Assembly: GCF_006345805.1 (NCBI RefSeq)
Contig: NC_043002.1
Location: 74,152,001-74,216,000 of the forward strand
Source: Octopus sinensis
Lineage: Eukaryota
Direction of reading: 5' to 3'
Length of the DNA: 64,000 nt
The notes below the pieces were generated by a model. The model worked only from the letters and a program-made list of their open reading frames with translations. It was not told the DNA's origin and ran no database searches. A program made the translations under genes and the position numbers. Positions within the stretch are counted from its first letter, which is position 1; the number at the start of each line of letters is the position of its first letter. Of this stretch, positions 21,966 to 64,000 are shown piece by piece.

Positions 21966-23205
21966 TGTGGACTAACCATAAGGGAAATTTTGTCTTGCCA
22001 AAATCTGATTTGAGAAGCTAAAATGTTAAGGAAGCATCTATCATCATCATCATCATTTAATGTCTGTTGTCCATGCTGACATGGGTTGGGCAGTTTGACT
22101 AGGGCTGGTAAGCTGAGGGACTGCATCAGACTCCAGTCTGATTTGGCATGGTTTCTATGGCTGGATGCCCTTCCTAACACCAACCTCTCAGAGTGTAATG
22201 AGTGCTTTTATGTGCCACCAGCTCAGGTAAAAGTTGCATGATACCAATATCCACCATGACTACGATTTCACTTGGTTTAAAGGTTCTTCTTCTCAAGCAC
22301 AGCATATTACCAAAGGTCCTGATCATTTGTCATTGCCTCTGTGAGGCCCAATGCTCGAAGGGTGCTTTTTACATGCCACTGGCACAGGTGCCAATTACAT
22401 GATAATGGCATCGGCCACATTGTCTCCATGAGGCCCAATGCTTGACAGGTACTTTTTACATGCCACCAGCATGTGTGTCAGATGCTTCTGTGAGGCCCAA
22501 TGCTTGAAAGATGTTTTTTATGTGCCACTGGTACAGGTACCACTTATGCAACACTGACATCAACCACATTGACTCTGTAAGGCCCAGTGCTCCACAGGTG
22601 TATGTACCACTGGCATGGGTGCCAGGTATGCGACACAGGTAATAAATATTACATACACATACAGACAATCTATGTATGTCTCCTTACTACAGTCATAGAA
22701 GTATTGAATACATAACTGTTTTCCATTTGTTAATCAATTGTACTGTCACATAATTTGATACTGGAACCTTTGCTTATTAATGAATTTGTAGGTGTACATC
22801 TTTTTTGTTTGTTTTCTTTTTTATCCAACACTGTTATTGAAAACTATCATTGTTTACTGATTTGCTGGAGCTTATACTATTTCAAACAAATGAAGATATA
22901 GTTTACAGTTTTTGAGTCTAGTTTAGTAAGCTAGAAGAGAATGCATTAATTATAATGTGCATATACTATCTCAACAGTAAGTAAACCACCTCATGGCACT
23001 TATTTAGAACACGAACAGAAAAAATTGTCTTAAACCCTCACCTTTAGACCTGGAGGCCAATACTTTATTGATTTAGTCAGCTGTGACTCAATACATGTAT
23101 ATTAAACATATTAACAACAAAGAATTATACAATTATGTTATTCTTAATTTCTTTAAAGATTTTTCTCTTGTTTTCAGTAAAACCAAAACGTTCAAATACA
23201 CAAAT

Positions 23206-23637
23206 ATGACTGGCGTTCCTGAAGGTGATAAGAGTGACAAATATGATTGCATTATAGTCTATTGTGAAAAAGATGAAGATAGAGCTAAAGACATACAAAA
23301 TGAATTGCTAAAAATTGAACTAAATGATAAAAAACCTCTCAATATTGAACTGGAGGAATATGTTGGTGGTACATCATTTAAACGACCTGAACATTTACAA
23401 AAACTTAAAGACAAGGCGTTATTCATTTGTGTTTTAATTTCAGACAAAATAACTGACATTACTAAACATGAATATCATGAACTCTTAAATGACAACCATG
23501 GTGGGATACTGCCAATCCTCTTGCATTGTCATTGTATGATTTCTGGTTTCCAAAGTCTTAATTATATTGATTGGACTAACAAACATAAACTAGACAAATT
23601 TAAAAACATTGTCAACAGGAAAAGGAAGGGAGACTAA
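23206..23637 (+). CDS. TIR-like domain protein (143 aa from ATG 23206; may be the last exon of a longer CDS)
   Basis: Intact non-repetitive ORF with TIR-type order: box-1-like KYDCIIVYCEKDEDRAKDIQNEL, BB-loop-like EEYVGG, betaC LFICVLIS, alphaC ITKHEYHELL, betaD ILPILL, betaE LNYIDW. A strong acceptor (ttttctcttgttttcag) ends at 23177, and the ATG has A at -3. Confidence 0.75.
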   Translation: MTGVPEGDKSDKYDCIIVYCEKDEDRAKDIQNELLKIELNDKKPLNIELEEYVGGTSFKRPEHLQKLKDKALFICVLISDKITDITKHEYHELLNDNHGGILPILLHCHCMISGFQSLNYIDWTNKHKLDKFKNIVNRKRKGD

Positions 23638-23748
23638 AATTACTCAGGAAGTACAAAATGAATTGAATAGGTTAAATTTCAAATTAGTTTTCTGTTAAAA
23701 TTAAGGCAATTTATAGAATGGCAAAAATTAAACTACTCTGGTGAATAT

Positions 23749-24139
23749 AGTTCTATATTTAAGAGATGAGGAATTATGTACATTATTTACATTTGACAGA
23801 TATTTGTCCTCATCTTTGTTGCTAACACAATGTTTCAGCTGATATACCTTCCAGCCTTCTTCAGGTACCTTGGGGAAATTTCAAACCTGGGTTCTCATTC
23901 CTAAGGTATTTTTTGATGTTTTTATTATTATTATTATTCAGGTCACTGCCTGGAATCGAACTTGGAATCTTGGAGTTAATAGCCCTCGCTCTTAACCACT
24001 ACACCAGATGCCCATGGGAATCTGGTGTAGTGGCCAATTTCCCCAAGACACCTGATGAAGGCTGGAGGGTATATCAGCTGAAACGTTGTGTTAACAAACA
24101 AATAAGATGAGGACAAATATCTGTCAAATGTAAATAATG
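23749..24139. mobile_element. Fold-back tRNA-head/hammerhead element, copy 1
   Basis: Inverted arms; TSD tctggtgaatat at 23737-23748 and 24140-24151. Confidence 0.8.
24047..24092 (+). ncRNA. Minimal type I hammerhead ribozyme motif
   Basis: GACAC-CTGATGA-a-GGCTG(10 nt)CAGCT-GAAA-CG-TT-GTGTT; stem I GACAC/GTGTT, GUU triplet. Confidence 0.7.
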
Positions 24140-25024
24140 TCTGGTGAATATGTTTGGAAAGACTGAGTGAGTGAACAAGCTAAAGATGTATAATGAAAAA
24201 TTTGATGCAAAGGAACAAAGAAATGAATACAATACTGTATGTCTTATGAACATGTCAATTTTTCTCTATATTAAATGTCTTAACATACATGTATCAAAAA
24301 TATATAATCCTCTATATATGTGAATAGTATTTCATACTATTTTTTATTAATTTTCCCATGGTTATATGGACAAGACAGTTTGCACAGAAATTAATCAACC
24401 AACAAGAACACATTCATCAGCCTACAAAAGCACATAACGACATCTCATCTTACACATACACACATATCCTGACTGAACTGCCCACTCTCTTGGACTTGCA
24501 TATCTTAACCACTTTCAGCACCTCTCCTCATCTACATACCAGCACTCTACCTGGATTACCACTGGATCTTCGTACTCTTTTGGACTCTTCATGGACCTCA
24601 CTGATTTATTTTTGTTGATGTAAATTGCTCTAATCTACCATGACTTTTGAACTTTCTGAACTCCACATGTTCTTCTTATTTCTTTCTGTTGAAGAGCATA
24701 GTCTTGAAACGTAAAAGATTTTTTCATTTTCCCCCAGCATCAAACTAAAACACTTGCTTATTGTTCCTTCACCTGTCATCTTTCTTTTTCTATAAATTTG
24801 AACCATATATATATAAATATCATTTATCATCATCATTTTTATGTCTAGTTTTCCATCCTTGCATGAATTGGACAGAGTTTATTGAGGCAGATTTTCTATT
24901 GTCATATCGATAGAATAAGTACTAGGCCGACAAAGAATAAGTCCTGGAGTCGATTTGTTCAACTAAAGGCAGTGCTCCAGCATGGCTGCAGTCAAAATGA
25001 CAACCAAATAAAAGAATATGTATA

Positions 25025-30949: not shown

Positions 30950-33900
30950 TATGTATATATATATATATACCTAGCTAAAACCAAAGTCGTAATAAGTAGG
31001 AAGGCAGACAAACCACAAATCCCTTCAAGTAGATGGCTCTGCTTGATCTGTAGAAAAGACGTAGGTAGAAACTCTATAAGATGTATCCAGTGTAAGCTTT
31101 GGACACATAAGAGATCCAGCAATATCAAAGGCAGGCTAACTGGGAAGATTCCAGGGAGAAAAACTAGAAGCAGTTGATAGCTTCCATTACCTAGGTGACC
31201 AAGTCAATAGCGGGGGAGGGTGCACTGAAAGTGTAGCTGCTAGAATAAGAATAGCCTGGGCAAAGTTCAGTGAGCTCTTACATCTGCTGGTGACAAAGGG
31301 CCTCTTACTCAGAGTAAAAGGTAGACTGTATGACGCATGTGTACGAACAGCCATGCTACATGGCAGTGAAACATGCACCCTGATTGCTGAGGATATGCAT
31401 AAGCTCGCAAGGAATGAAGCCAGTATGCTCCGATGGATGTGTAATGTCAGTGTGCATAGTCGACAGAGTGTAAGTACCTTGAGAGAAAAGTTAGACCTAA
31501 GAAGCATCAGATGTGGTGTGCAAGAGAGACGACTGCGCTGGTATGGTCATGTGACGAGAATGGATGAGGATAGCTGTGTGAAAAAGTGCCACATCCTAGC
31601 GGTTGAGTGAACCTGTGGAAGAGGTATACCAAGAAGACCTGGGATGAGGTGGTGGAGCATGATCTTCGAACAGTAGGCTTCACCGAGGCAATGACTAGTA
31701 ACCGAGACCTTTGGAAATATGCAGTGCATGAGAAAACCTGGCAAGCCAAGTAAGACCGTAAACTATGGCCTATGCCAGGAGTGTAACCACCCACTTATGC
31801 GTATCTTTCCTTCATTGGACACTAAACTCTGCTTGTGAAGACCTGTTGAGGGAATTGAAACTGAATCAAATTCGATGACTGGCACCAGTGCCAGTGGGGT
31901 GCTAAGAGTACCATCCGGGCATGATCATTGCCAGAGAAGCTGACCAGCTACCATGCCAGTGGCACGTGAAAAAACATTCAAGCGAGGTCATTGCCAGTGC
32001 CGCTGGACTGGCTCCTGTGCAGGTGGCATGTTAAAAACACCATTTGAGCGTGGCCGTTGCCAGTACCACCTGACTGGCCCTCATGCTGGTGGCACGTAAA
32101 AGCACCTGCTACATTCTCAGAGTGGTTGGCATTAGGAAGGGCATCCAGCTGTAGAAAGTCTGCCAGATCAGATTGGAGTCTGGTGGGCCAGTCCTCAGTC
32201 AAATCATCCAACCCATGCTAGCTTGGAAAGCAGATGTTAAACGATGATGATGAAGACAGTACTCCAGCATGGCCGCAGTCAAATGGCCGAAAGAAGTAAA
32301 AGAATATAATATATATAACGGCTGAAGGAACCTGTGGAAGAGGTAGACCCAGGAAGACCTGGGAGGAAGCGGTGAAGCACGACCTTCGAACTTTAGGCCT
32401 CACCGAGGCAATGAATGGTGACCGAGACTTTTGGAAATATGCTGTGCTTGAGAAGACCCGGCAAGCCAAGTGAGACCATAACCACGTGGCCTATGCCAGG
32501 GGCATAACCAGCCTACTTATGTGTACCTTTCCTTTTTTGGACACTAAACTCTGCTTGTGAAGACCTGTTGAGGCAAGTGAAATCGAAATGAAATTTGATG
32601 ACTGGCATCTGTGCTAGTGGGGCGCTAAGAGCACCATCTGAGCGTGATCATTGACAGAGCAGCTAACTGGCTTCCGTGCCGGTGGCACGTAAAAGGCACC
32701 AATCAAGCGTGTGTGAATGTATGTTATTTTCAGGTCACAACTAAACCCTAATCTAAGCCTATGCTAACATAGCAAAAGGGGGCTCAGGAGCCTTTAAAAG
32801 GCAGTGACTAATCCTGATCTAGTCCTAACCCCTCCTAGGGGTACTATTAGTCAAGGCTGCATCAAAAATATGCATTAGAGAAGGCTGCATCGAAGATCTG
32901 CATTGGAGAAGGTTGCATCGAAGGTTTGTATTGGAGATCTGCAGTGAAGAAGGTTGACTCAAAGATTTGGATCGCCTGCAGGGGGCAAGTTACCTGGTCG
33001 GGGAGGAAAGGTAAGAGGCCTTAATGCTTTGATTTAAAATTCGAATTTGCTATTTTTTGGTAAAAGGCTCAGTGCCTCATCTTGTAAGGATGATTGCGTC
33101 CATTCTTTGAACTTTGGTAAGAGGTTAATACCTCATTTTGTGTTATTGAGAAAAAGGGAACAATGTTTTTGGGAAACAGCAATCAGTGGGCTTTGTCTGC
33201 TTTCCCCACCGACCATCTTTTCATTTTTTTCATTCCATTATCATTTGCGTCTTTGTCCAGCCTGCAGCTACATCTTTGTAAGGCTGCATGGCCAATTTAT
33301 GAAATAAAATAGCTTGCTTACCAACCAGATGGTTTCAGATTCAGTCGCACGGCATGGCACTTTGGGCAGGTGTCTTCTACTATAGCCTCTGTCTGACCAA
33401 AGCCTTGTGAGTGATTTGATAGACGGAAACTGAAAAATGCCCGTTGTGTGTGTGTGTGTGTGTTTGTGTGTGCGCACGTGCGCGTTTGTCCCCCAACATC
33501 GCTTGACAACCGATGCTGGTGTGTAAACACACTGCCATCGGTTGTCAAGCGATGTTGGGGGGACAAACACAGATACATAAACATATACAAACACACACAT
33601 ATATATATATATATGTACAAACATACATATATATATACGCGATGGGCTTCTTTCAGTTTCCGTCTACCAAATCCACTTACAAGTCTTTGGTCGTCCCGAG
33701 TAGAAGACACTTGCCCAAGGTGTCACACAGTGGGTCTGAACCTGGAACCATGTGGTTGGTAAGCAAGCTACTTATCACACAGCTACTCCTGCACCTATAT
33801 ATATCATCATCATCATCATCATTTAGCGTCCGTTTTCCATGCTAGCATATGTTGGACGGTTTAACTGGGGTCTGTGAAGCCGGAAGGCTTCATCAGGCCC

Positions 33901-37000: not shown

Positions 37001-40000
37001 CTTTTAGTAATTACACTTTCAGTAGTCATACACAATATTGATCATAAAACTGAGGTTAAACAAAGTTAAAGCTAGTGGCTATTCACATAAGTTATTCAAT
37101 GAAACACATAACTTATAATATCTAATAAACTGATATCCTGTAAAACAAAGCACAAAATCAGGAGTGGTATAAGAACACAATGAACACACAAGACATGATC
37201 TGATAGTATGAAACTTTGTCTACGTAGCTCTTTTCTCTACTTAAATTTCTGATACTACATGCAAATGCCTAAATCAGTAGCATCTCCCCACTTAAAACAT
37301 GTGTAAAATAGTAACAAAATGTTTCACAAGATGAATAATATACTTATGAAAATTAAAACTAGAGAAAATTATACCTTTGAGAATAATTTTTCTTTTGTTC
37401 AGTGATGTTATTGTCATAGAATGTGCCAACATCTTTATTCCACAAGTGAATAAAGTCCAAAAGACCAGATCTGCAACAAATCATGAAAATCAATTTAAGA
37501 ATTACTACCTAAGACTCAGGACTGGATTCAGATGGGGTGCAGCCCTAAGCTACAAGAACTTGTAGAGACCCTAGGTGGTAAGTATTGATAGAAAATAAGA
37601 GTGTAACAACTGAACTTAGTAAGAATCACCAAAATGTATAATAAAATCAATAAGTAGAGAAAGTGGAGCTTCTTTAGAACTCAAACACATATAATCATTC
37701 TACTTAACAACTTCAAAATGGAAATAGTGTATTGAATTGACATTTGGGCACAATTATAAAATAATAAATTATGATAAACTTGTGTAAATTTTTCAATGTT
37801 AATTAATATAAATCATTACTTAAATCTAAATTATAATAAAACTGTAGCAAAGAAAGGACAATTCCAAGATTTTGAGAGTCTCCTTTTAGAGTGTGTATTT
37901 GTAAGTTATAGGTTTTTACAAAAATGCCTAAATCAAGCCTTACTATTTTGTACTGAGCTGTGGCAGCTTATGCTGTGTAAATGATTTTTCCTTTACAGTC
38001 ATTGTTTGAAGGTCTTCATTTAATGCAATGAACAGATTATTAGCGATAGAACAGAAACATAAAAACTTTAACTAACATTGTCAAACTACAATAAAGATGT
38101 TTTTTCTGCCATTACCAATATACTTAACCCTTTCGTTACTGTATTTATTTTGAGATGCTCTGTGTTTCTTTCAATTACTTTAAATATAACAAAGAATTTA
38201 GTAAAATAACTTAGTTATCATTCAGCTAGTGTTAGGAACATAAATTGTGACTAAGGTTTGGTGGAAGATTTTAATTCAAAACTTATGAAATCAAGACATT
38301 TGTACTCAGAGCCAGAGCTGGTTTCAGCTGGGTTGGTAATGAAAGGGTTAAAGAAAGCAAAAATAAGCAAAGTTGATGTCAAAGGACAGAAGAGGGAGAT
38401 CCAGGAAGACATGAGATGAAGTATTGAAGGCTGATCTTAAGACACTGAGCCTTACAAAGGTGATGTCAAAGGACTGAGATGTCTGGTACCTTGCTGTACT
38501 CAAGAAGACTCATCCACTACAGCAGAATTGATACTGGTACTGGCGCCACATAAAAAGCACTGGTGCTGGTGCCACGTTAAGAGCACTGATGCTGGTTTCA
38601 CATTAAAAGCACTGATGCTGGTGCCACATTAAAAGCACTGATGCTGGTGCCACATTAAAAGCACTGATGCTGGTTCCACATTAAAAGCACTGATGCTGGT
38701 GCCACGTTAAAAGCACTGATGCTGGTTCCACATTAAAAGCACTGATGCTGGTTCCACATAAAAAGCACTGATGCTGGTGCCACATTAAAAGCACTGATGC
38801 TGGTGCCACATTAAAAGCACTGATGCTGGTTCCACGTTAAAAGCACTGATGCTGGTTCCACATTAAAAGCACTGATGCTGGTGTCACATTAAAAGCACTG
38901 ATGCTGGTTCCACATAAAAAGCACTGATGCTGGTGCCACATTAAAAGCACTGATGCTGGTGCCACATTAAAAGCACTGATGCTGGTTCCACATTAAAAGC
39001 ACTGATGCTGGTTCCACATTAAAAGCACTGATGCTGGTGCCACGTTAAAAGCACTGATGCTGGTTCCACATTAAAAGCACTGATGCTGGTGTCACATTAA
39101 AAGCACTGATGCTGTGCCACGTTAAAAGCACTGATGCTGGTTCCACATTAAAAGCACTGATGCTGGTTCCACATAAAAAGCACTGATGCTGGTGCCACAT
39201 TAAAAGCACTGATGCTGGTGCCACGTTAAAAGCACTGATGCTGGTTCCACATTAAAAGCACTGATGCTGGTGTCACATTAAAAGCACTGATGCTGGTGCC
39301 ACGTTAAAAGCACTGATGCTGGTTCCACATTAAAAGCACTGATGCTGGTTCCACATTAAAAGCACTGATGCTGGTGCCACATTAAAAGCACTGATGCTGG
39401 TGCCACATTAAAAGCACTGATGCTGGTGCCACATTAAAAGCACTGATGCTGGTGCCACATTAAAAGCACTGATGCTGGTGTCACATTAAAAGCACTGATG
39501 CTGGTGCCACGTTAAAAGCACTGATGCTGGTTCCACATTAAAAGCACTGATGCTGGTTCCACATTAAAAGCACTGATGCTGGTTCCACATTAAAAGCACT
39601 GATGCTGGTTCCACATTAAAAGCACTGATGCTGGTTCCACATTAAAAGCACTGATGCTGGTGCCACATTAAAAGCACTGATGCTGGTGCCACATTAAAAG
39701 CACTGATGCTGGTTCCACAGTAAAAGCACTGATGCTGGTTCCACATTAAAAGCACTGATGCTAGTGCCATGTTAAAAGCACTGATGCTGGTACCACGTTA
39801 AAAGCACTGATGCTGGTTCCATGTTAAAAGCACTGATGCAGGTACCATGTTAAAAGCACTGATGCTGGTGCTACGTGAAAAGCACTGATGCTGGTACCAT
39901 ATAAAAAGCACCTAGTACACTATGTAAAGTGGTTAGTACTAGGAAGGGCATCCAGCTATAGAAACCATGCTAGAACAGACAATAGAGCCTGGTGCAGCTC

Positions 40001-43000
40001 TTGTCAAATGATCCATCCAACCCATGCCAGCATGGAAAACAGATATTAAATGACAATGATGATGATGATAGTAATGATACAATAAGTGCTCAGACCAAAC
40101 CAAGTGCCTAAACTCAAGTAATAAGTGCTAGGATGCAGGATCCATAGCATATAAACATATAAATAAGTTTTAGTAAATTACATTTACTAAATTTAAAAGC
40201 AAAATTGTAAAGTAATCATAATGTGCAGGCTTACTTTACAACTAAAAATTAATAAATTCCTTACAAGTTTTCTGATGTGAAACAATGTTACATAAAGAGT
40301 TAACTTGGCTTCTACCACCCTAAATAAGGATCACATTTAAGTGTTGTCATTAGTAGTCAAATACCAAATATATGTGTACACATAGATATACTTGTGTCTA
40401 TGCAAATGTTTATATTCTGCACTCTGCATAATGAAAGCATTCACAAACAGTGAGCTACAAATAGTGAAGTTTGTTGACAATTCCCTATGATCAAAGTATC
40501 TGATAGCTCTGTACTTTTGAAGATGTGTGGAATAAAACATCCTTTATTTAAAAAATAGGCAAGAATTGGTGAGAGAAGTGGTATCTGTTTGTAAAACAAC
40601 GCCTTGATAATATGCATTCATCTAACCTATTCCAGCATGGAAAAATTGATGTAAAATGAACAAATGAATAACTGTTGATGAAAATTAGCCAACAATCACT
40701 AGAGTAGCCAGAGTGTGTGCCATCTGGGGTGGCCCTTCTGTTTGCTGCCCCTGGATCCCACAAAAAATACATATTGCCTACAGCAGACCCAAAAGTGCCA
40801 CCAGGGATGGACCACTTCAGCTACGCTAGTGCCAACAATGTATCTGTAGCTGCAAAACAGATCTTTAAATGAATATAAAAAGTAATTCAACACATTTATA
40901 AAAGCTTGAGACAGCTTTAAGTTATTACACTTTCAGTTGTCATATCACAAAAGATGATGCTAAACAAAATCAAACAAAGCTAGTAGTTATTCTCATAAGT
41001 TATTCAGAGAAACATAATTCCTAATAAACTTCTCCTGTACTGCTGAAATGATAACTACTAAAAATGACCTTACAGAAAAGAAAAAAGAAAAAAAGATAAC
41101 CACTTACGTCTTGAGGGATTTGATAATATAATTATAGTTGTTCAAAAGAAATATATATTTTAGAGTTTGGTCACTGTAAGTTTCTGACTTATTGGTCAAG
41201 TTCAGACCCAACTCAGAGAGAACTTTAGCTGCAAAAAAGAAATATCAGACAAAATTTCACAATTTATGTTAAATTGAAAAATCAGTAACAGTGAAAATTT
41301 GAAATTTTTTTTTCTAGGTACAGTTTTGCTTTATATTTTTTCACAACAAAAATGAACGTACAGTTCTATTTTTAAGAGATGAGGAATAATGTACAATATT
41401 TACATTTGACGGATATTTGTCCTCATCTTGTTTGTTGTTAACACATTTTGGCTGATATTATTATAATTATTATTATTGTTGTTGTTGTTGTTCAGGTCAC
41501 TGCTTGGAATCGAACTTGGAATCTTGGGGTTAGTGACCTGAACAGTAATAATAACAACATTGGAAAATACCTTAAGAATAAGAACCCAGGTTCGAAATTT
41601 CCCCAAGACACCCGAAATCAGCTGAAATGTTGTGTTAACAAACAAGATGAGGACAAATATTTGTCAAATGTAAATGATGTAAAAATAAATGTGTTGGTTG
41701 CAAAAATTTTTTTAAATTTTCATAAATTGTTGAAGCAATTGTTTTTATGACTAAATGAATGCACTTTCGAAAAGTGGTAAAGCTATATATTTTTAACAGT
41801 ATCATAATGAAGTCATTATATACAGTAATTTCTATTGTTCAAGGAAATTAATCAATACCTGCTATGTAAAAGGCACCCATGTCAGTGTCACATATAAAGC
41901 ACCCATGCTGATGCCATGTAAAAAGCACCCGTGCTGGTGCCATGTGAAAAGCACTCAGTACACACTGTAAAGTGGTTGGTGTTAGGAAGGGCATCCAGCC
42001 ATAGAAACCATGCCAAAAGAGGCAACTGGAGCCTGGTGTAGTTTTCTGGCTACCCAGCCCGTCAAATCATCCAACCTATGCCAGCATGGAAAAAGGATGT
42101 TTGATGATGAGGAAGATATAATTCCTTAATTGCTATTGAGTTACAAGAAAGAGAATTGGATTTATTTTACTCCTCTCCACTCCTTATATTCCTAGCATAA
42201 AGTTCCCTTCCTTAATCAAGTTTGTAGTCACGTGTGCTGCATGGCATCCTCACTAGTGGTGGAGTTACAAAAAAAGTGGATGGTGTTAGGAAGGGCATCA
42301 AGCAGGAAAAACCATGCCAAAGCAGATGCTGGAGCATGATGCATCATTGGGCCCACTGGATGCTGTCAAACTGGAAATCCTATGCCAATATGAATGTTAA
42401 ATATTCGTCATCATCATCGTTTAGCATCCGCTTTCCATGCTGGCATGGGTTGGACGGTGCAACTGGGGTCTGGGAAGCCAGAAGGCTGCACCAGGCCCAG
42501 TCTGATCTGGCAATGTTTCTACGGCTGGATGCCCTTCCTAATGCCAACCACTCCATGAGTGTAGTGGGTGCTTTTTACGTGCCACCTGCACAGGTGCCAG
42601 ACAAGCCTGGCAAACAGCCACGGTCGGATGGTGCTTTTTACATGCCACCGGCACGGAGGCCAGGCGAGGCTGGCAACGGCCACGATCGGATGGTGCTTTT
42701 TACATGCCACCGGCACGGAAGCCAGTCAGGGAGGCACTGGCAATGGCCACGTTCGGATGGTTCTCTTATGTGCCACCAGCACTGATATCACAGCGACAAT
42801 TTCCATTCATGTTGATCAATTTTGATTTTTTCCATTTTTAATCTTTTAATTTTTTTTATTTGATTTTCACTTGCCTCAACAGGTCTTCACAAGTAGGGTT
42901 TTGTGTCCCAAGAAGGAAAGGTATGCATAAGTGGACTGAGGCCATGGGTGATGGTCTCACTTGTCCTGCCGGGTCTTCGATCATAACATAGGGGGAGTAT

Positions 43001-48411: not shown

Positions 48412-51400
48412 CATACACAGCGCAGTGAACACATTGTGTAAATTACATAAAAATATTATCTTGAAATACTAAAGAGTAAATCTATTCAATAAAATCGCCA
48501 TTGGCTTCGACTAGTCTCCAGACGATTTTGGAATCTCTTGCAACTCTTCGAGGGCGGGGTTCCTTGTTGAATGCTACCATAATCCTTGCCTTCAGTTCAT
48601 CTTTGGTGTTACAAGGAGTTTTGTTGATCTCTAGCTCAACTGCTCCCCACACATAATAATCAAGGGGGTTAAGTGGCCAGATGTTAGTGGGTAATGTAGT
48701 TGCAGAAATTGTCTGACAGCTATGACTGGGTTCTCCTGTTTGTGTGGCATGGTGCAGAGTCCTTTTGCTAGACATAAGGTCTTCCAGCAGCCAACCTCTT
48801 GACCACGGCAGCACTACCTCCTCTAGGCACTTGTTGTAGGCCTCCGTGTTGAGTCTTACATAATAAAACAAGCTTAAAACATTTTCCCCTTACAATATGT
48901 TTTGTGCACACTTAATTGTTCCTCACAGTCTAAGCTGTTTCCATTGATATGTAGCAACATAACAACCATTTTAATTACCCAGAATGAGATTTTCATTTAC
49001 CTTCAGTATTCCTCAACTGCCTAAGCTTACCCAGATTCATATGTTCCTACAAGGAGTTTGAATTATTCAATGATAGCAACAAGGGAATTATATCTGTATA
49101 TTTTACTTGTTTCAGTCATTTGACTACAGCCATGCTAGAACACTGCCTTGAAGATTTTGGTTGGACAAATTAATCCCCAGTTTGGTGAAGCAGTATCAGG
49201 GCCATGGGACAACAACACAAAGACACACACGCACAACATACATACACACACAACAGGCACCCACAGTTTCCATCTATCAAATTTGCTCACAAGGCATTGG
49301 TTGGCCCAGGACTATAATAAAAGACACTCAGCAAAGGTGTCATGCAGTGACACTGAACATGAAACCATATGGTTGCAAAGTGAGTTTCTGAATCACACAG
49401 CCATACCTGTGCCTATACATAGATTAAGAAAAAAATTATTGGGTTAATCATAGGTAAATGTGATCAATAATGAAAAAAAAATTAAAATAATGTCCAATCA
49501 CCACTGGACTCAAGATTATCTTTTCACAATCTTCTACAATAAAGATAGATTTATTGAACAATTTTATTACAATTAAAAGTAAGATAGAAATAAACAGCAA
49601 TCTGAAGACCAGTAATCATTAATTCACTGAAATGATAGTAACTTATCTCTTTAGCATTCAGATTACTTTGCCAAATATAATGCTTATTTATTCACATTTT
49701 TATGAATTAATTATTCCCTATCTTGTAGTCTCAAGATTTTGATGATGTGATCACTTATTTTTAGAATGACATTGTAGGGTAGGTGTGAGAGGCCAGACTT
49801 AGCCAGCTTCAACATGAAACAGAGTTAATATTTGGACCCGATGAGACCAGTTTTAATGCTAATGGATTAGTACATTTGATTCTTCTGATATTAGTAAATA
49901 TTAAGTACTGAAGCTTCCTGATTCACCTATTTCTACCAAATCAAATATACATTCAATTTAATGTTACTTTTTACCGATATACAATTAAATAAAACAATTT
50001 CACATAGATTTGTTGCTACACAGTTTAATGCTTCACAAAGTTATGCAATTAACCAAATTAAGCAATTATCTAGTATGTGATTAAACATAATTGCCAGCAA
50101 GTATCTGTTTGAGTGTCATGAATCATGAATTTTACTCAGTCAAAGAAGTTATTTATGTTCAATTACAACAGCTATATATATGTATGTAAGTGTGTGTGTG
50201 TTTATATACACACACATACACACATATATATACACACAATCAATGGTGTGAAGTTTATTACTTAGAAAATTATATTTCTGATCATCAGCATTAGAAATAG
50301 CAGCACTCAGAGATATGCTTCATGATTTGTCTGTTTTCAAGTCTTGACAAATCATACATACCTATGTTGCCAACAGTGAAAAAGTGTTTAGCAGTAGGAA
50401 AAAAAAGAAAAAAGAACCTTAGTACATTTCTTTACGAGATATTTGAAAGAAACTCGATATATCTGAGAAATTTATTATGTCCCATTTACATCTTCATGCC
50501 TTACTTTATTTTTCTGTCAACCAGGTACTACAATTCTATACAGTTCTATATTTAAGAGATGAGGAATTATGTACATTATTTACATTCGGCGGGTATTTGT
50601 CCTCATCTTGTTTGTTGTTAGCACAACGTTTCAGCTGATATATCCTCCAGCCTTCTTCAGGTGTCTTGGGGAAATTTCGAACCTGGGTTCTTATTCCTAA
50701 GGTATTTTTCGATGTTATTATTATTATTGTTAGTGTTCAGGTCACTGATTGGAATTGAACTCGGAATCTTGGGGTTAGTAGCCTGCGCTCTTAACCCACA
50801 GGCATATGGCGTAGTGGTTAAGAGCACAAGCTACTAACCCCAAGATTCTGAGTTCGATTCCAAGCAGTGACCTGAATAATAACAATAATAATAATGATAA
50901 CATCGAAAAGTACCTTAGGAATGAGAACCCAGGTTCAAAATTTCCCCAAGACACCTGAAAAAGGCTGGAGGGTATATCAGCCGAAACGTGTTAGCAACAA
51001 ACAAGATGAGGACAAATACCCATCAAATGTAAATAATGTACTACAATTCTATATTTTAAAGAAAGAGAAAATAGGTTGTTGTAATATTCATACCCTCTGC
51101 AATGGCTAAGGGAAGAAAATTGGCTTCAAGTGAAATTGATTGTATTGATTATTGGTTCATATCTAGTATTAAAATGTAATTAATTAAAAATGATGAATTT
51201 CAGGAATTAGAGTTGTATTTTCTCACTTTCACACCAGACAAAGTATGAAATCATCATCATCATTATTTTAACACCTGCTTTTCCACTTTTCCATGCTTAC
51301 ATTCATCAGACAAGACCACACTGAGGCAGAGTTTTTTCCTACAGTTAGATACCCTTCTTGACACCTGTTTCCAAGCAGAGTAGTATTCCTTGTTTGTCAA

Positions 51401-54272
51401 ACAACCACCAATCCAGACACAGTTATGCAGGGGACTGGAAATAGTGTAACTTTTGTTTACAATCAGAGAACATGCATGTGAAGAGATGAGGGGAAAATAT
51501 CCACTTACACACACACACACACGTGATGGTTTTTTTCAGTTTTCATTTCATCTACTAGTTTCACTCACAAAGCATTGATCAATCGACAGCTATACTAGAG
51601 AATACCAGCTGACAGTGTCCTCATAGTGTGGTCAAAACCTTAACCATATCATTTCAAAGCAAACTTCTTAATTACACAACTATCCTCACACCTATGTCTT
51701 AATCTGTTGTAAGGAGTGGGGACGGGAAGAGCATCCAGCCATAAAAAAAATTGTGCCATACACAAAGAACAGCTACTTTTCTCAGTAGCTCGTCTGTGTC
51801 AAATGGTTAAAGACCATGATGAGTAGCTAGACATTACTGGACTCAAACTGGTCACAAGTAGTTACCTCTCCAACAAGAGGCGACAACACCTTGGACCTGC
51901 TCTTCACCACAACTCCTGAAGCGGTTATCAATTGTACTACGGAGGAACCTCTAGGCGACTGTTCATGCTATGATCATCGCCAATCCGGCTCTTGCGGGCA
52001 ACAACAAAAACCTGAACCATCTCCAATCTGCTTCCTTCAATTAGAAGAGAGCAGATTGGAACCTGTACCACACTGAATTACAGTACCCAAACTGGCGTGA
52101 ATTCTACAACTCTGGAGATGTGAATACTATACTCCAGAGTATCCTGGACTTAATATGGGCAGCATGTGCAGCATCAGTGCCACGTAAACAGAAAAAGAAG
52201 AACCGCCCCAAAAGTGCAATTTGGGAAACTTCAGCGGTCCGACTTGCCAGGAAGGAACGTCGGACTGCTGAACAGGAATACAAGTAGCATAAATCAGACA
52301 CCAACAGGAAAAAGCGGAATAAATCTTCCAACCATCTCAAGCAAGTGACAAAAAAAGCAATGCTTGAATTTGAACAGTGCATAGCAGCCAATCCTGACAG
52401 CAAGGTTTTCTGGAAATATGTGCATTCGAAGCAGAGACCTTACTCTCCAGTGGGCCCTCTTCGCAACCCTCACACAAACCAGATCACTGATGATCCCAAG
52501 GAATGCGCAGAACTCATTGCCGAGTGCTATGCAAACATATTCACTGTTGAGAATCAAAATGTACCATCTTCACCATCTCTAACAGCAAATTCCATAACAA
52601 CTATGGAATTTACACCTGCAATGCTGCGACGTCACCTTCAAAATAAGCGCAACTATGCCTCCCCTGGTCTTGATGGAGTTACATACCTGCTTCTCAAATG
52701 TGGCAGGTACTTCCTTTTACACCAGCTTTCTATTTTCTTCCAGTACTGTCTCAACAATGGTGCTACTCCGGAGCAGTGGAAAACTGCCAGTGTCATTCCT
52801 CTGTTCAAAAAGGGCGACCGCACATCACCTGTCAACTATCGCCCAGTCAGTCTCACTAGCTGTATTGCAAAACTGATGGAATCGTGTGTCAGAGAAACAC
52901 TTTGGAACTTCTGGAGCTCTCACAGTCTCATCCAACCCTCACAATATGGATTTGTCCCTAACTCCAGCTGCAGTGATCAGCTTGTCGAGTTCCTTGAGGA
53001 GATTACTCAGATCACTGACAGTGGCTCATGGGTGGATGTTGTCTACCTTGACTTTGCTAAGGCTTTCAACTCTGTGCCACACAAAAGGCTTATGGTGAAA
53101 CTCTCTGCAATGGGTGTGACGGATGATCTTTTTAACTGGTTGAAATCCTTCATTCTCAGCCGAAAGGAGGTAGGACAGCATTCTACACCATATGAGATGT
53201 CATCGGGTGTACCACAGGGATCTGTCCTTGGTCCCCTCTTGTTTGTGGCATACATTAATGACATAGATGCCAATTTAAAGAATGTCACAGTATTGAAATA
53301 TGCAGATGACATCACGCTGTACCTTGAAATCAAGAGGACAGATCCTGTTGTCTACAGCTCTTTCCTGCAATCAGACCTGGACACAATGCAGCAATGGATC
53401 GCAGACTGGCAACTGAAACTGGCTGTGGACAAGTGTACCACCATGCATTTTGGGAGAAAAAACCCTGCGTCCACATACTCCCTCCACAACACTGATATCA
53501 AGAAATCCTCTTGCGAGCGTGACCTAGGCATCACTGTCAGCAGTGATTTGCGTTGGACAAAGCATATCTCTAAAATTGTCAAGAAGGCCGAGGGTGTCTT
53601 GGCATCACTCAGCAAGACTTTTGTTAGCCGCTCTCCAGCCATCTATTTAAAACTGTATACAGCTATGGTACGACCACACTTGGAATTCGCATCATCAGTT
53701 TGGAACCACTATCTTGCTCAGAACATTGACCTCCTGGAATCTGTTCAGAGACATGCAACCAAACGCATACCCTCCATCAGACACCTACCATACTCTGAGC
53801 GCCTTGTTTCCCTGGGCATGGATTCACTGAAGCTCTGGCGATGGACTTGGTAAACACCCACAAAGTTATCAACCACCTCACCAACAACAACACTGAACAC
53901 CTTTTTGATCTTCATGTGTCTAACACACGTGGACATGCCTACAAAGTCAGAAAACAACACAGCTCCCATGACTTTCGGAAACATTTTTTCACGCTCAGAG
54001 TTGCTGAAGCATGGAACAAACTGCCTGTATCAGTTGTTGACTGCCATGACACTGCATCCTTTAAGGCCCTCATGCTTTCCGAAATCTGCCGAAACTACAC
54101 CTGATTATACATACACTTTAGATGAGTTGTAGAGCACCTGAGCACTGTACACAATGTTTTTTTTTTTATTTATTTATTATTATGAGAGCCAGCAAACTCA
54201 TGCCAGCATGGAAAAACGAACATAAAATGATGATGATGATACTAAACTAAGTATAACTAAGTATTAATATAT

Positions 54273-61391: not shown

Positions 61392-62988
61392 TATACACTC
61401 ACACACACATATATACTCATATACACAGACACATATATACACACTCACAAACACATGCACATGTATTGAAACAAAGTTCTTTTCCAGATATAAATAAATC
61501 ATTTGTTATTTGAAAGAAATTAGCAAGAGAGAATACTTACTTTGATGTTTTCTATGAAATCATCCAAAGCTTTTGCACCCTACAATGGAAAGGCAAAATA
61601 TAATAGAAATATGAATAGAATCACTTCTATTACAGAGAAATATTTGAGGATGAAAATATATTCTAATTTATCAGTTTTCTGAAAAGAAGTTAGGAACAAT
61701 TGAATCTAGATAAATATGGCAATGACAGAAAATGAAGATTACTTACTGTAGAATCCAGTACAGATAGCAGTGATGCCAACTTAGATCTTGTTGGAGCTTG
61801 ACAGCCCTATAAAGAATCAAAAAAGGTTTTTCTTGAAACCCTACATTGTTTAAACTATTAATATGCATAAAAAAGTGATATTTAGTTGAGGCGGGGGGGG
61901 GGGGGGTACAGAGTCAGCTTATTCAAAGATAGGGGGTTTCTTTGATGTAAAAGAATTAAGTTTCATTTTATATATATAAGTCCAGCTTTCAATTTTGTCA
62001 CTAAAAAATTTTTTTTGCATCATCATTTAATGCTGGCATGGGTTGGACAGTTTGACCAGAGCTGGCAAGCTGGAAAGCTGCACCAGGATCCCAGTCTGAT
62101 TTGGAATAGTTTCTACAGCTGGATGCCCTTCTTAAAGTGGTTGGTGTTAGGAAGGGTATCCACCCATACAAACCATGCCAAAATAGATTGGATCCTAGTG
62201 TAGCTCTTCAACTTGCCAGCCTTGGTTAAACTGTCCAACCCATGTCAGCATGGACAGCAGATGTGAAATGATGATGAGCATAGTATCTAAAGTGCCACAG
62301 ATTATTAATGATAGGTATTATAAGATTAATACAATGCTATTGTTAATATAATAAAACTGGATCCTAGTGTAGCTCTTCAACTTGCCAGCCTTGGTTAAAC
62401 TGTCCAACCCATGTCAGCATGGACAGCAGATGTGAAATGATGATGAGCATAGTATCTAAAGTGCCACAGATTATTAATGATAGGTATTATAAGATTAATA
62501 CAATGCTATTGTTAATATAATAAAACTGGATCCTAGTGTAGCTCTTCAACTTGCCAGCCTTGGTTAAACTGTCCAACCCATGTCAGCATGGACAGCAGAT
62601 GTGAAATGATGATGAGCATAGTATCTAAAGTGCCACAGATTATTAATGATATGTATTATAAGATTAATACAATGCTATTGTTAATATAATAAAACTGGAT
62701 CCTAGTGTAGCTCTTCAACTTGCCAGCCCTGGTTAAACTGTCCAACCCATGTCAGCATGGACAGCAGATGTGAAATGATGATGAGCATAGTATCTAAAGT
62801 GCCACAGATTATTAATGATAGGTATTATAAGATTAATACAATGCTATTGTTAATATAATAAAACTCACCTCTAAAGTAAGATCAAATTGTGGTTTAATGC
62901 AGCGTAAATGCTGTACAATAGGAAATATTGACAAAACTGATGTGTATTCATGACGAGCAATGTTCTTTTTAGCATTTGCAGCTATAGC
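29650..62988 (-). CDS. EXOC7: Exocyst complex component 7 (Exo70), 3' part; complement join of 62869-62988, 61747-61806, 61541-61579, 57259-57321, 55996-56062, 45565-45636, 41108-41228, 37375-37470, 35371-35452, 34404-34445, 29650-29886
   Basis: Manually spliced exons total 999 nt, all GT-AG with matching phases. The translation carries Exo70 hallmarks: GAKALDDFIENIK, NMPKDGTVHELT, IFLLNNYNYI, LKDKERQNIKDKF, GFNKELEE, FTKNPDKYIKY, FDASA*. 5' exons lie beyond 64000. Confidence 0.96.
30390..30820 (+). mobile_element. Penelope-like 3' fragment (GIY-YIG C-terminus plus decayed hammerhead)
   Basis: RKLHACIKEH...NLRISEGILIHQKKTKVNNTRE, followed by ttgaata-t-gggg tcata accc-gaaa. Confidence 0.55.
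30969..32710 (+). mobile_element. Two RTE LINE 3' fragments (30969-32255 and 32317-32710)
   Basis: High similarity to 4564-6030: LAKTKV, Cys finger, YLGDQV, RVKGRLYDACVR, 3' UTR. Confidence 0.9.
33310..33795. mobile_element. Inverted pair of tRNA-derived SINEs
   Basis: A plus copy (cttaccaacc...ggcactttgggcaggtgtcttctact) and a minus copy meet at a palindromic junction near 33525. Confidence 0.75.
34404..34445 (-). CDS. EXOC7: EXOC7 exon (LKDKERQNIKDKFT)
   Basis: 42 nt, acceptor tttcag, donor gtaagt. Confidence 0.93.
35371..35452 (-). CDS. EXOC7: EXOC7 exon (WSRVLHYILEVHKPISVQRAQQPELAK)
   Basis: 82 nt, acceptor tttttag, donor gtaatt. Confidence 0.9.
36571..36952 (+). mobile_element. Near full-length tRNA-derived SINE (abundant family; fragments near 16640, 17570, 24910, 26340, 44270, 49100, 63680)
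   Basis: Head ggagtggctgtgtggtaag...gggttcagtccc, core ggcaccttgggcaagtgtc, internal microsatellite, tail gactgaaac..gtaaaagag. Confidence 0.8.
37375..37470 (-). CDS. EXOC7: EXOC7 exon (SGLLDFIHLWNKDVGTFYDNNITEQKKNYSQS)
   Basis: 96 nt, phase 2/2, acceptor ttgcag, donor gtataa. Confidence 0.9.
38128..38347. mobile_element. piggyBac-type MITE (copies at 34537-34733 and 59685-59906)
   Basis: TTAA|CCCTTTCGTTAC ... GTAATGAAAGGG|TTAA. Confidence 0.8.
38385..40070 (+). mobile_element. RTE 3' end hosting a minisatellite
   Basis: GRSRKT*DEVLKADLKTL before the array; ggaagggcatccagc and (GAT)n tail after it. Confidence 0.75.
38533..39911. repeat. 26-bp minisatellite, about 53 copies (AAAAGCACTGATGCTGGT[G/T]CCAC[A/G]TT)
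   Basis: Period measured between 38583 and 38609; contiguous units with no spacers. Confidence 0.97.
41108..41228 (-). CDS. EXOC7: EXOC7 exon (TKVLSELGLNLTNKSETYSDQTLKYIFLLNNYNYIIKSLK)
   Basis: 121 nt, acceptor tttgcag, donor gtaagt; IFLxNNYNYI motif. Confidence 0.95.
41360..41680. mobile_element. Fold-back tRNA-head/hammerhead element, copy 2 (internally deleted)
   Basis: Same termini as copies 1 and 3; degenerate TSD aaaaatgaacgt (41348-41359) / aaaaataaatgt (41681-41692). Confidence 0.75.
42406..43382 (-). mobile_element. RTE 3' end, interrupted
   Basis: Same subfamily as 15183-16036. Confidence 0.85.
44585..44960. mobile_element. Tigger/pogo-like DNA transposon end fragment
   Basis: TA|CAGAAATCCCTTGCCATATCACAGTTCACCTATCGCG resembles pogo-type TIRs; second TIR not found. 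Confidence 0.4.
45565..45636 (-). CDS. EXOC7: EXOC7 exon (ATDPSAPSVGKDTEKSKLKLADYI)
   Basis: 72 nt, phase 1/1, acceptor ctacag, donor gtaagt. Confidence 0.88.
47612..48282 (+). mobile_element. RTE 3' fragment
   Basis: SLRVKGRLYDACV...QERRLCWFGHMIRM, tail motif. Confidence 0.85.
48418..48860 (-). mobile_element. Tc1/mariner transposase C-terminal remnant
   Basis: NIWPLNPLDYYVWGAVE...NTKDELKARI...VEANGDFIE*. Confidence 0.8.
50541..51037. mobile_element. Fold-back tRNA-head/hammerhead element, copy 3 (most complete)
   Basis: About 230-bp inverted arms; tRNA-like head 50801-50872; hammerhead motifs near 50620-50665 (-) and 50950-50992 (+, decayed); TSD gtactacaattctata at 50525-50540 and 51038-51053. 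Confidence 0.85.
51760..54182 (+). mobile_element. 5'-truncated CR1-clade LINE with a 502-aa open RT frame (52345-53853)
   Basis: NYRPVSLTS, YLDFAKAFNSVPH, GVPQGSVLGPLLF, KYADD, ERDLGI, VRPHLEFAS, TRGHAYK; (TAT)n-like tail. Confidence 0.93.
55996..56062 (-). CDS. EXOC7: EXOC7 exon (TIIFLVQLKEYAETAGAMLMKY)
   Basis: 67 nt, acceptor ttttcag, donor gtaaat; ETAGAML motif. Confidence 0.93.
57259..57321 (-). CDS. EXOC7: EXOC7 exon (IDPEKVSNMPKDGTVHELTNH)
   Basis: 63 nt, acceptor ttctag, donor gtaagt; contains the conserved PxDGTVHELT motif. Confidence 0.95.
59050..59245 (-). mobile_element. Possible Hero/R2-superfamily non-LTR 3' end
   Basis: Minus strand VEKATKWL*IK followed by tgatcaatcctggctaggtca..ctgggtga, resembling Hero 3' UTRs as I recall them; not verified. 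Confidence 0.4.
60780..61127 (-). mobile_element. RTE-BovB-like LINE C-terminal fragment
   Basis: QVRWSGYLSRMSDIRIPKQLLFGQ...FKDKLKDNLKRCNI...WE. Confidence 0.75.
61541..61579 (-). CDS. EXOC7: EXOC7 exon (GAKALDDFIENIK)
   Basis: 39 nt, acceptor ttgtag, donor gtaagt. Confidence 0.93.
61747..61806 (-). CDS. EXOC7: EXOC7 exon (GCQAPTRSKLASLLSVLDST)
   Basis: 60 nt, acceptor tttatag, donor gtaagt. Confidence 0.92.
62189..62865. repeat. 4 x 169-bp near-perfect tandem duplication
   Basis: Units start at tggatcc at 62189, 62358, 62527 and 62696. Confidence 0.97.
62869..62988 (-). CDS. EXOC7: EXOC7 exon (AIAANAKKNIARHEYTSVLSIFPIVQHLRCIKPQFDLTLE)
   Basis: 120 nt, acceptor ttccaag, donor gtgagt, phase 0/0. 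Confidence 0.93.
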
Positions 62989-64000
62989 CTTGGAAAAAGA
63001 AAAAAAACAATTAATAATATCTTGGTTTCAAATTTTGGCACAAGGCCAGTAATTTGGGGGAGTGGGCAGGTTGATTAAGTCATCCCTAGTGCTCAACTGG
63101 TACTTATTCTATCAACCCCAAAAGGATGAAAGGCATAGGAGACTTTGGCAGAATTTGAACTCAGAGTGTAAAGACAGACGAAATGCTGTTAAGGATTTTC
63201 CCTAGTGTGCTAATGATTCTGCCAGCTCACTGCCTTTAAAATAAAAATAACAACATATAATAACATATTAGAATGAAATAACAGTTCGAAAGCAGCAGAG
63301 ATTTAAATGAACAGTTAATGTGATTTTTACTTAATTTCAGATATTCTAAACATCATATTATTTTTGGTATCAAGAAATATTATGAAGGATCAGTTGGCAG
63401 AAGAGATCCTTATTCAACATTGAAAGGAGAAAAATAAATTAAAAGAAAGATTATTTTGATCTTTTACTATATTCAGCCACTGGGCAATGGCCATGTTGGG
63501 ACACTACATTTAGAGTTCTGAGACCAATGTAATTTCAGTATGGTCCTTATTTTATCGATCTCTATTTAGCAGCTAAGTTACCTTTTGGCATAAAGGGACA
63601 TGATTGAATACACTGGTTTACACTATTAGAAACAGGCACACAAACACACACATAAATATATATACATCTTTTATCTTTTACCTGTTTCAGTCATGGATTG
63701 TGACTAAGCTGGAGTATCACCTAGAAAGGTTTTAGTTGAACAAATCAATCTTAATACTTATAGTATCAGTCTCTCCTGTTAGACCATTTAGTTACAAGGA
63801 CTTAAACAAACCTACACCACCATTTGTCAAACTATAGGAGAGGGGGACAAATATAACACAAAGATACAGACATGTAAGCATGCATACACACACACACAAT
63901 GATGGCCGTCCACACAATTTCTGTCTACAAAATTCACTTATATGGCACTGGTTGTCCAAAGTGACACACAATGGGATTGAACCCAAAACCATGTGGTTGC

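What the first reader, a model, noticed from the sequence alone, without database searches (positions are those of the whole stretch)
50525..51053. Fold-back element family joining a tRNA-like Pol III head to a hammerhead ribozyme, with retro-type TSDs
Seen: three copies (23749-24139, 41360-41680, 50541-51037) share termini and are built from two head-to-head inverted arms. In the best copy each arm reads: tRNA-like head (on the plus arm, A box TGGCGTAGTGG 50807-50817, loop CTACTAA, B box GTTCGATTC 50852-50860), (AAT)n, spacer, minimal hammerhead (GACAC CTGA[T/A]GA a GGCTG..CAGC[C/T] GAAA CG TT GTG), tail. One end has an extra ~30-nt extension (cagttctatatttaagagatgaggaattat). Each copy has its own 12-16 bp direct repeat. 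Established: variable-length TSDs indicate target-primed reverse transcription; minimal hammerheads, inverted pLTRs and a short terminal extension are features of Penelope-like elements; tRNA SINEs normally borrow LINE tails. Inference: a Pol III-driven, self-cleaving non-autonomous retroelement (SINE/retrozyme hybrid) mobilised by PLE machinery. I do not know of a description of this architecture.
Basis: partly seen in the sequence, partly recalled or inferred. Interest (0 to 1): 0.82.

Follow-up and report, generated by a model that had tools for sequence, protein, structure and literature searches.

The report
Penelope retroelement with tRNA-type promoter
The hairpin-shaped repeats are the short end-pieces of a protein-coding Penelope-like jumping gene that carries a tRNA-like promoter sequence and no run of four T's on its coding strand, so it likely was copied by RNA polymerase III, an enzyme not expected to make protein-coding transposon RNA.

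Summary
The fold-back repeats are real, with thousands of copies. They are not a separate SINE: each arm is the terminal repeat (pLTR) of a protein-coding Penelope-like element (PLE). Upstream the arm joins the GIY-YIG end of the ORF; downstream the hammerhead and 30-nt 'tail' encode the ORF's N-terminus. Inverted arms, one-sided tail (86 of 97) and ~12-bp TSDs are known PLE features; two earlier notes of this scan saw such fold-backs elsewhere.

New: (1) the pLTR carries a tRNA-like A/B-box head, and most reverse transcripts end at its 5' edge (16 of 19; 54 of 86). (2) The ORF has no ancestral T4 run in 2,440 columns; all 80 homologues have one or more. This fits polymerase III transcription of the whole element (inferred; RNA-seq gave no support; an RTE control is also T4-poor; two scan notes report a similar LINE). 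(3) A 3-nt deletion sits on the hammerhead cut site in 47 of 286 arms, independent of subfamily and of the partner arm: possibly a scar of in-vivo cleavage. (4) Arms of one insertion often differ at subfamily sites, pointing to two RNA templates.

New variant of a known kind.

The parts
50525..50540 (+). left target-site duplication (16 bp exact; about 12 bp if the first 4 nt belong to the element's short end)
50541..50570 (-). PLE 'tail': 30-nt extension on this arm only; in full-length copies it runs on in frame into the ORF
50541..50796 (-). inverted arm (pLTR copy) from the tail end back to the D-loop of the tRNA-like head; A box missing; reads as 51 open codons matching the N-terminus of the PLE protein
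   Evidence: (tblastn to P0003, E 2.7e-5)
50619..50665 (-). intact minimal type I hammerhead (core 50660-50654, GAAA 50632-50629, predicted cut between 50625 and 50624)
   Evidence: descriptor scan, not Rfam
50800..50872 (+). tRNA-like head with A box 50807-50817 and B box 50852-50860; acceptor stem lost; likely polymerase III promoter
   Evidence: (z 3-7 against shuffles for 7 tRNA isotypes of G000)
50875..50902 (+). (AAT)n microsatellite between head and ORF start; length very variable among copies
50921..50923 (+). ATG that likely starts the PLE ORF, ten codons before the hammerhead-coded residues
   Evidence: start site inferred
50950..50995 (+). degenerate hammerhead of the plus arm: core mutated, and carrying the recurrent 3-nt deletion at the cleavage site
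50797..51037 (+). direct arm (pLTR copy) ending at the 'short' end, without tail
51038..51053 (+). right target-site duplication
23737..24151 (.). second insertion of the same family with exact 12-bp TSD; minus arm complete with tail, plus arm internally deleted with intact hammerhead at 24047-24092
41361..41678 (.). third, decayed insertion; hammerheads deleted, no TSD above chance

Best explanation
[quoted passage not shown] Shown: the arm is the pLTR; its order is ORF stop, about 25 nt, tRNA-like head, (AAT)n, ATG, hammerhead, tail, ORF. Inferred: polymerase III starts at the 5' edge of the head and, meeting no T4 run, can read through the whole ORF and on into tandem copies. The RT-endonuclease protein would bind its own RNA at the ORF start, cut both target strands about 12 bp apart and prime two reverse transcriptions, one at the tail end and one 30 nt earlier. 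Priming at the first pLTR of the transcript copies only about 285 nt before running off the RNA 5' end, which explains the mass of short copies ending at the head. The two cDNAs join head to head, often through the small palindrome at the head's edge, to give the fold-back. The hammerhead likely cut part of the templates, and the RT jumped the cut with loss of 2-5 nt. The short copies are likely dead on arrival.
For: pLTR identity: arms run into the ORF end upstream and into the ORF start downstream; L199/L215 is a partial tandem and L477 runs head-ORF-head. Tail asymmetry: 86 of 97 two-armed loci have one tail end and one short end, none tail/tail (45 of the loci were picked by the tail pattern), matching the two RT start sites of the anole PLE (PMC11167929). 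TSD of 10 bp or more with at most 1 mismatch in 60 of 85, mode 12, control 1 of 301. 5' step: 16 of 19 arms that reach the head end within -11..+9 of the head's palindrome (plus L097); 54 of 86 sites (hand count of the 100 rows); 3 of 30 head-anchored loci read on upstream; about 7% per 20 nt expected from the mean 272-nt extension of 29 ORF-end copies (hand count). 28 of those 54 join to something other than the mirror head, so the palindrome alone does not explain the step. Four ORF-bearing copies also begin at the head, four go further up. T runs: 0 runs of 4+ T in 2,440 majority columns, coverage 30 or more; copies 0.40/kb against 3.27/kb in 53 T-matched homologues; 0 of 80 homologues with zero; fitted P(0) 0.0004-0.002. 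8 of 25 homologous pLTRs have a TATA-like box 35-50 nt before the hammerhead, none of 111 homologue loci matched the A/B-box pattern, and this family has no such TATA. Two templates: arms differ at the CUGA[U/A]GA site in 10 of 62 insertions, about 1 expected from self-copy (p 8e-7). Cut-site deletion: 47 of 286 arms lack 3 nt, 4 lack 2, 6 lack 5; 17 of 100 in an independent sample; other sites of equal microhomology 0-6 of about 250; unlinked to subfamily (p 0.58) and independent between arms (39/19/4); also the only deletion listed in RNA reads of organism B, 7-8% of reads.
Against: No direct transcript evidence: RNA-seq of a related organism gave equal depth on both strands, 71-73% of reads running on into unrelated flanks, and no pile-up of starts or ends at the head or the cut site (ordinary libraries, family probably inactive). 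T-run scarcity is general (TT and TTT are low too); given only 12 TTT runs, no T4 has a chance of about 0.02-0.1; the lowest homologue reaches 0.43/kb; an RTE LINE of the same genome has only 0.99/kb and one ancestral T run in 1,455 columns. The closest relatives (P0001, P0002) could not be read as DNA. 32 of 86 head junctions read on upstream, so longer templates were common. Arms are more alike than random pairs (10 discordant against 25 expected, p 5e-5), so part of the insertions may be self-copies. 5' truncations do not pile up at the hammerhead cut. Hammerhead core columns are no more conserved than others among copies (3.5% against 3.9%), as expected for dead copies. No intact ORF was found (longest 551 aa among 150 scored). 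How an uncapped polymerase III RNA would be translated is unexplained.
Confidence: 0.6

Rival explanations
1. Ordinary PLE with a passive relic: a tRNA-derived SINE once landed in the 3' UTR and was carried along; transcription is by polymerase II; cDNAs stop at the head's edge because the small palindrome snaps back or stalls the RT; the lack of T runs is lineage composition.
For: The palindrome is exactly at the step and many junctions are perfect mirrors. The (AAT)n looks like a SINE tail. The RTE control is also T4-poor. Drosophila Penelope has a LINE-like internal promoter without TATA (abstract). RNA-seq shows only read-through.
Against: 28 of 54 ends at the step are not mirror junctions. 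An RNA hairpin should stall RT before it, not after copying it (inference). No free SINE with this head and another shared body appeared in 30 head-anchored loci. T4 absence lies beyond all 80 homologues.
Confidence: 0.25
2. Mixed mode: polymerase III makes only the short non-coding templates from the head, while the mRNA for the protein comes from polymerase II read-through from flanks or tandem copies.
For: The step at the head is strong while read-through copies are also common. It needs no cap-independent translation.
Against: It does not explain why T4 runs are absent over the whole ORF rather than only near the 5' end; L477 begins at the head and spans the ORF.
Confidence: 0.1
3. One reading: an independent, self-propagating SINE/retrozyme hybrid that borrows PLE proteins.
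For: Short copies greatly outnumber long ones (first-look candidates 4,592 for the arm, 240 for an inner ORF stretch) and begin at a tRNA-like head as SINEs do.
Against: Head, hammerhead and tail belong to the coding element. Same alleles in short and ORF-linked arms; frame-keeping 9-nt repeat steps. Junctions differ from copy to copy.
Confidence: 0.05

Closest known systems
Canonical endonuclease-positive Penelope-like elements, Penelope/Poseidon type (PMC8557442 passages; PMC11167929 main text; PMC4209133 main text)
   Same: Single RT plus C-terminal GIY-YIG ORF, pLTRs in partial tandems, 5' inverted truncated copy, one-sided 30-40 bp tail, minimal hammerhead overlapping the ORF start, AC-rich stem-loop at the tail, many short dual-hammerhead copies on opposite strands.
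   Different: tRNA-like A/B-box head inside the pLTR, 5' ends piled at that head, no T4 run in the ORF, recurrent deletion at the hammerhead cut. The anole study found no RNA reads ending at the cut site.
Schistosoma SMalpha / Sjalpha SINE-like elements (review passage PMC6765202; passages PMC8490949; originals not read)
   Same: Polymerase III-type promoter followed by a type I hammerhead.
   Different: Non-coding tandem repeats with a canonical hammerhead; here the unit is the pLTR of a coding element, the hammerhead is minimal and protein-coding, and copies are inverted.
TRIMp3: Cassandra, Helenus, Ajax (passages PMC10886601)
   Same: Small-RNA-derived polymerase III promoter inside a terminal repeat.
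   Different: All are non-autonomous LTR elements of up to 1.3 kb; that paper argues that autonomous partners must use polymerase II. Here the promoter sits in a 2.7-kb coding PLE.
Animal non-LTR retrozymes (bioRxiv 10.64898/2026.07.22.740005, parts 1-3 of 5; passages PMC7229834)
   Same: pLTR-related short elements with type I hammerheads, linked to PLEs.
   Different: Head-to-tail tandems yielding circular RNA; no tRNA head found in the parts read; here copies are head-to-head and dispersed.

Membership tests
Penelope-like element (EN+) | ORF with telomerase-like RT and GIY-YIG endonuclease | tested here: met
   551-aa frame of L165 has 1,583 homologues at E<=1e-30, most of the 120 listed labelled PF00078/PF26215, three also PF01541; own Pfam scan of L165 gave no hit; motif names are recalled
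Penelope-like element (EN+) | pLTR from partial tandem, same sequence at both ends of the ORF | tested here: met
   L199/L215, L480, L477
Penelope-like element (EN+) | inverted 5' copy and one-sided 30-40 bp tail | tested here: met
   86 of 97 two-armed loci
Penelope-like element (EN+) | minimal hammerhead in the pLTR | tested here: met
   descriptor scan; 81 of 223 arms keep core and cut site; stems I and II fold; not found by Rfam
Penelope/Poseidon clade | RT phylogeny with named reference elements | tested here: inconclusive
   quick tree separates it from two other PLE families of the genome but holds no named reference; the clade label rests on recalled motifs and the hammerhead-coded N-terminus
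tRNA-derived SINE (SINE2) | tRNA-related head with A and B boxes at the 5' end | tested here: met
   parent tRNA not identified (best of 7 isotypes: Arg-TCT 49/76)
tRNA-derived SINE (SINE2) | non-coding lineage separate from its autonomous partner | tested here: not met
   arm is part of the coding element; same alleles; frame kept
tRNA-derived SINE (SINE2) | transcribed by RNA polymerase III | not testable with these tools
   indirect only; RNA-seq uninformative
Non-LTR retrozyme | head-to-tail tandem units with a hammerhead in each | tested here: not met
   copies are dispersed and head-to-head
Non-LTR retrozyme | self-cleavage and circular RNA | not testable with these tools
   no assay; no start or end pile-up
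MITE (DNA transposon) | fixed short TSD and symmetric terminal inverted repeats | tested here: not met
   TSD 10-17 bp with mode 12; ends asymmetric

The most novel reading that the evidence does not exclude
An autonomous Penelope-like retroelement that swapped a polymerase II promoter for a captured tRNA promoter, lost every polymerase III terminator along 2.7 kb and made its protein from a polymerase III transcript; its thousands of dead copies also record in-vivo hammerhead cleavage as a 3-nt scar and show that the two arms of PLE insertions come from two RNA templates.
Probability: 0.4. Interest if true: 0.87.

Novelty: new variant of a known kind. Interest (0 to 1): 0.68.

Why it matters
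Protein-coding retroelements are held to need RNA polymerase II (or I for R2, recalled); PMC10886601 says so for the partners of tRNA-bearing TRIMs. A coding PLE driven by a tRNA promoter would break that rule, would show how SINE-like short copies can come straight from an autonomous element, and raises the question of cap-free translation. Separately, whether PLE minimal hammerheads cut in vivo is open (PMC11167929 found no such reads; PMC4209133 found weak activity in vitro). A deletion at the cut site in about a sixth of arms makes this testable in any genome rich in PLE copies, and the arm-to-arm comparison makes the origin of PLE inverted repeats testable.

Tried and rejected
Rfam on the whole window and on 50500-51100: only microsatellite-driven miRNA hits, no hammerhead or tRNA. 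ARAGORN: none at default, nonsense calls when relaxed. PF01541 search of G000 returned other PLE families with intact ORFs of 775-883 aa, none sharing this hammerhead or tail; rejected as partners. Search of JGI metagenomes with P0003 alone and of viral contigs with alignment A1 found nothing. No RNA holder was listed for the window copy; three raw RNA runs of organism B were laid instead. Test of a cut-site deletion in other hammerhead families of the genome failed for lack of copies (1-2 each). A codon-shuffle test on the single copy L165 showed no T4 deficit (2 seen, 2.6 expected); it keeps the copy's own codon use and private mutations. Parent tRNA not found: only 7 isotypes were at hand and Ile, which I recall as similar, was not among them. 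Hammerhead covariation across families was not scored, because the loci were chosen by a pairing descriptor. In a replicate set (28 of the 30 head-anchored loci) the 3-nt deletion was rarer, 3 of 32 arms. MITE, retrozyme and stand-alone SINE readings were rejected (see membership tests). Lunse et al. 2017 was not held. Repbase and Dfam could not be searched, so the family may already be annotated there as Penelope or as a SINE; supplements of PMC13282606 (octopus repeat library) and of the 2026 preprint were not read and may bear on novelty.

Full report
Observation. The three copies, their head-to-head arms and the one-sided 30-nt extension are in the sequence. Two have exact direct repeats of 16 and 12 bp; the third has none above chance. 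The A and B boxes are where stated. The best copy is less regular than reported: its plus-arm hammerhead is broken and its minus arm lacks the A box. Rfam and ARAGORN see nothing, but a family head aligns to all 7 tRNA isotypes taken from G000 at z 3-7 against shuffles, best Arg-TCT with 49 of 76.

Copy number and age. Exact patterns match 3,632 (tail end), 4,715 (hammerhead) and 3,369 (head) places, with reversed controls 0. Copies differ by 3.9% from column majority at non-CpG sites, so about 10^4 insertions is my estimate; 20 evenly chosen 10-kb stretches held 1 copy. Sampled words occur in runs of five coded organisms. No intact ORF was found among 150 scored matches.

What the arm is. Some copies run on upstream of the head into a shared sequence. 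Searching with it gave 30 loci, most of which have the arm directly downstream, and whose upstream part translates as the endonuclease end of a PLE ORF. Longer copies show RT, endonuclease, pLTR and a 5' inverted pLTR. In L187, L191 and L199 the tail runs in frame into the ORF; the hammerhead and tail encode residues that align with the N-terminus of an 847-aa homologue, P0003, and so do both arms of the window copy. L199/L215 is a partial tandem and L477 runs from one head through the ORF to the next. The arm is therefore the pLTR of a coding PLE. The label Penelope/Poseidon rests on recalled motifs; the quick tree has no named reference.

Known features. Of 97 two-armed loci, 86 have one tail end and one short end and none has two tails (45 input loci were chosen by the tail pattern). 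TSDs of 10 bp or more (one mismatch allowed) occur in 60 of 85, mode 12, against 1 of 301 swapped flanks, and ORF-bearing copies behave alike. Craig et al. describe the inverted copy and tail (passages); Frangieh et al. trace the tail to two RT start sites in an AC-rich stem-loop (main text), and this tail folds such a stem-loop; Cervera and de la Pena report opposite-strand minimal hammerhead pairs as truncated PLEs (main text). Two earlier notes of this scan filed similar fold-backs as ordinary.

First new point: 5' ends pile up at the head. In the tail-anchored set (44 loci) 16 of 19 arms that reach the head end between -11 and +9 of the small palindrome that lies 6 nt before tRNA position 1 (L098 counted once, L097 added). 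Among the first 100 rows of a junction pattern, 14 were mirror pairs, leaving 86 sites: 32 read on upstream and 54 did not; 28 of the 54 join to flank or to another part of the opposite arm (hand count; the pattern needs an intact 16-mer). Of 30 head-anchored loci 3 read on upstream. Background truncation, from 29 ORF-end copies, is about 7% per 20 nt (hand count). Among ORF-bearing copies whose 5' pLTR reaches the head, four start there and four go further. An RNA 5' end at the head is the simplest reading; a snap-back stop is the rival.

Second new point: no polymerase III terminator. Over 153,302 aligned bases the copies have 0.40 T4+ runs per kb; by column majority there are 360, 66 and 12 runs of one, two and three T and none longer in 2,440 columns. 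Of 111 homologue loci, 80 had at least 1.2 kb of match; none had zero, and 53 with similar T content average 3.27 per kb; a negative-binomial fit gives P(0) of 0.0004-0.002. Two other PLE families of the genome have 9 and 10 runs per 2.3 kb. Against: TT and TTT are low too, the lowest homologue has 0.43 per kb, an RTE of this genome has 0.99 per kb with one ancestral run in 1,455 columns, and a codon shuffle of one copy shows no deficit. Of 25 distinct homologous pLTRs, 8 have a TATA-like box 35-50 nt before the hammerhead; no homologue locus matched my A/B-box pattern. This suggests a promoter swap. RNA-seq of organism B shows only two-strand read-through with no start or end peaks, so it neither shows nor excludes past polymerase III use. 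After I had formed this idea, two scan notes on a tRNA-headed, T-run-free LINE in other genomes turned up; they are unchecked.

Third new point: a deletion on the ribozyme cut. 47 of 286 arms lack 3 nt at the predicted cleavage site, 4 lack 2 and 6 lack 5; an independent pattern sample gave 12, 4 and 1 of 100; a smaller replicate gave 3 of 32. Other sites with equal or longer microhomology show 0-6 of about 250. The deletion is unlinked to the core T/A allele (p 0.58) and independent between the two arms of an insertion (39 both whole, 19 mixed, 4 both deleted; 21 mixed expected), whereas the T/A allele is shared more often than chance. It thus behaves as a per-copy event. The product is what an RT would make if it ran off the 3' cleavage fragment and re-primed on two matching bases of the 5' fragment (inference). 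It is also the only deletion listed in the reads of organism B. Truncations do not pile up at the cut, so a slippage hot spot is not excluded; I put the scar reading at about 0.5.

Fourth point: two templates. Arms of one insertion differ at non-CpG subfamily sites more than later mutation allows: 10 of 62, 8 of 82 and 7 of 32 (p 8e-7, 3e-4, 8e-3), though less than random pairs at the first site. At least a part of the fold-backs were made from two RNAs, which fits the two-strand priming and predicted dimer of the anole protein.

Head-start and read-through arms share alleles at five sites, and the tail repeat varies in 9-nt steps in 88 of 93 arms. The short copies came from coding masters, not from a separate SINE.

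Literature. Ten searches found no paper on a tRNA-type promoter in a PLE pLTR or on cut-site deletions. Read: bioRxiv 2026.07.22.740005 parts 1-3 of 5; PMC11167929 and PMC4209133 parts 1-2 of 4; passages of PMC8557442, PMC6765202, PMC7229834, PMC8490949, PMC13282606, PMC6962438, PMC13725137 (hammerheads can aid cap-free translation in RNA viruses) and PMC10886601; abstract of PMC2377424. Subscription papers, Repbase, Dfam and supplements were not seen.

Verdict. Real; a member of the Penelope-like elements; a new variant. Confidence 0.95 that the arm is the pLTR, about 0.7 that the head marks a polymerase III start, about 0.45 that the whole element was polymerase III-transcribed. Interest 0.68.

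Noticed in passing
window 13141-14100: Fragment of a different PLE family (GIY-YIG by Pfam), unrelated in pLTR to the finding.
   Followed up: partly
L061-L070 (e.g. G000:C1:207473500-207480500): Young PLE family with intact 780-883 aa RT-endonuclease frames and an upstream frame of up to 479 aa; many near-identical copies, possibly still active.
   Followed up: partly
window 3677-5371, 15799-16227, 31140-31610: RTE-like LINE copies (label recalled); this family is also poor in T4 runs on its coding strand, worth checking for its own promoter.
   Followed up: partly
window 52288-53853 and 11444-12659: LINE RT fragments, one a 521-aa open frame.
   Followed up: no
window 23077-23637 (+): 186-aa open frame next to the 23749 copy that by eye resembles a TIR-like domain; not scanned.
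   Followed up: no
window 38403-39500 and beyond: Long tandem array with a 26-nt period; a 169-nt tandem of a SINE-like repeat at 62189-62995; a 122-bp near-perfect inverted repeat at 6123-6412.
   Followed up: no
window 48482-48889: 135-aa frame that by eye resembles a Tc1/mariner transposase end.
   Followed up: no
L478 (G000:C4:154068900-154074400): Head-to-head copy whose two arms both run 350-420 nt into the ORF: priming inside the ORF rather than at the tail.
   Followed up: no
L415-L445: 31 PLE-like loci lie in bacterial and archaeal genome bins; probably host-animal contamination.
   Followed up: no
L067 6629 and its inverted copy; L063 5521; L034 2621: Other hammerhead types with a palindromic stem III, too few copies to study.
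   Followed up: partly
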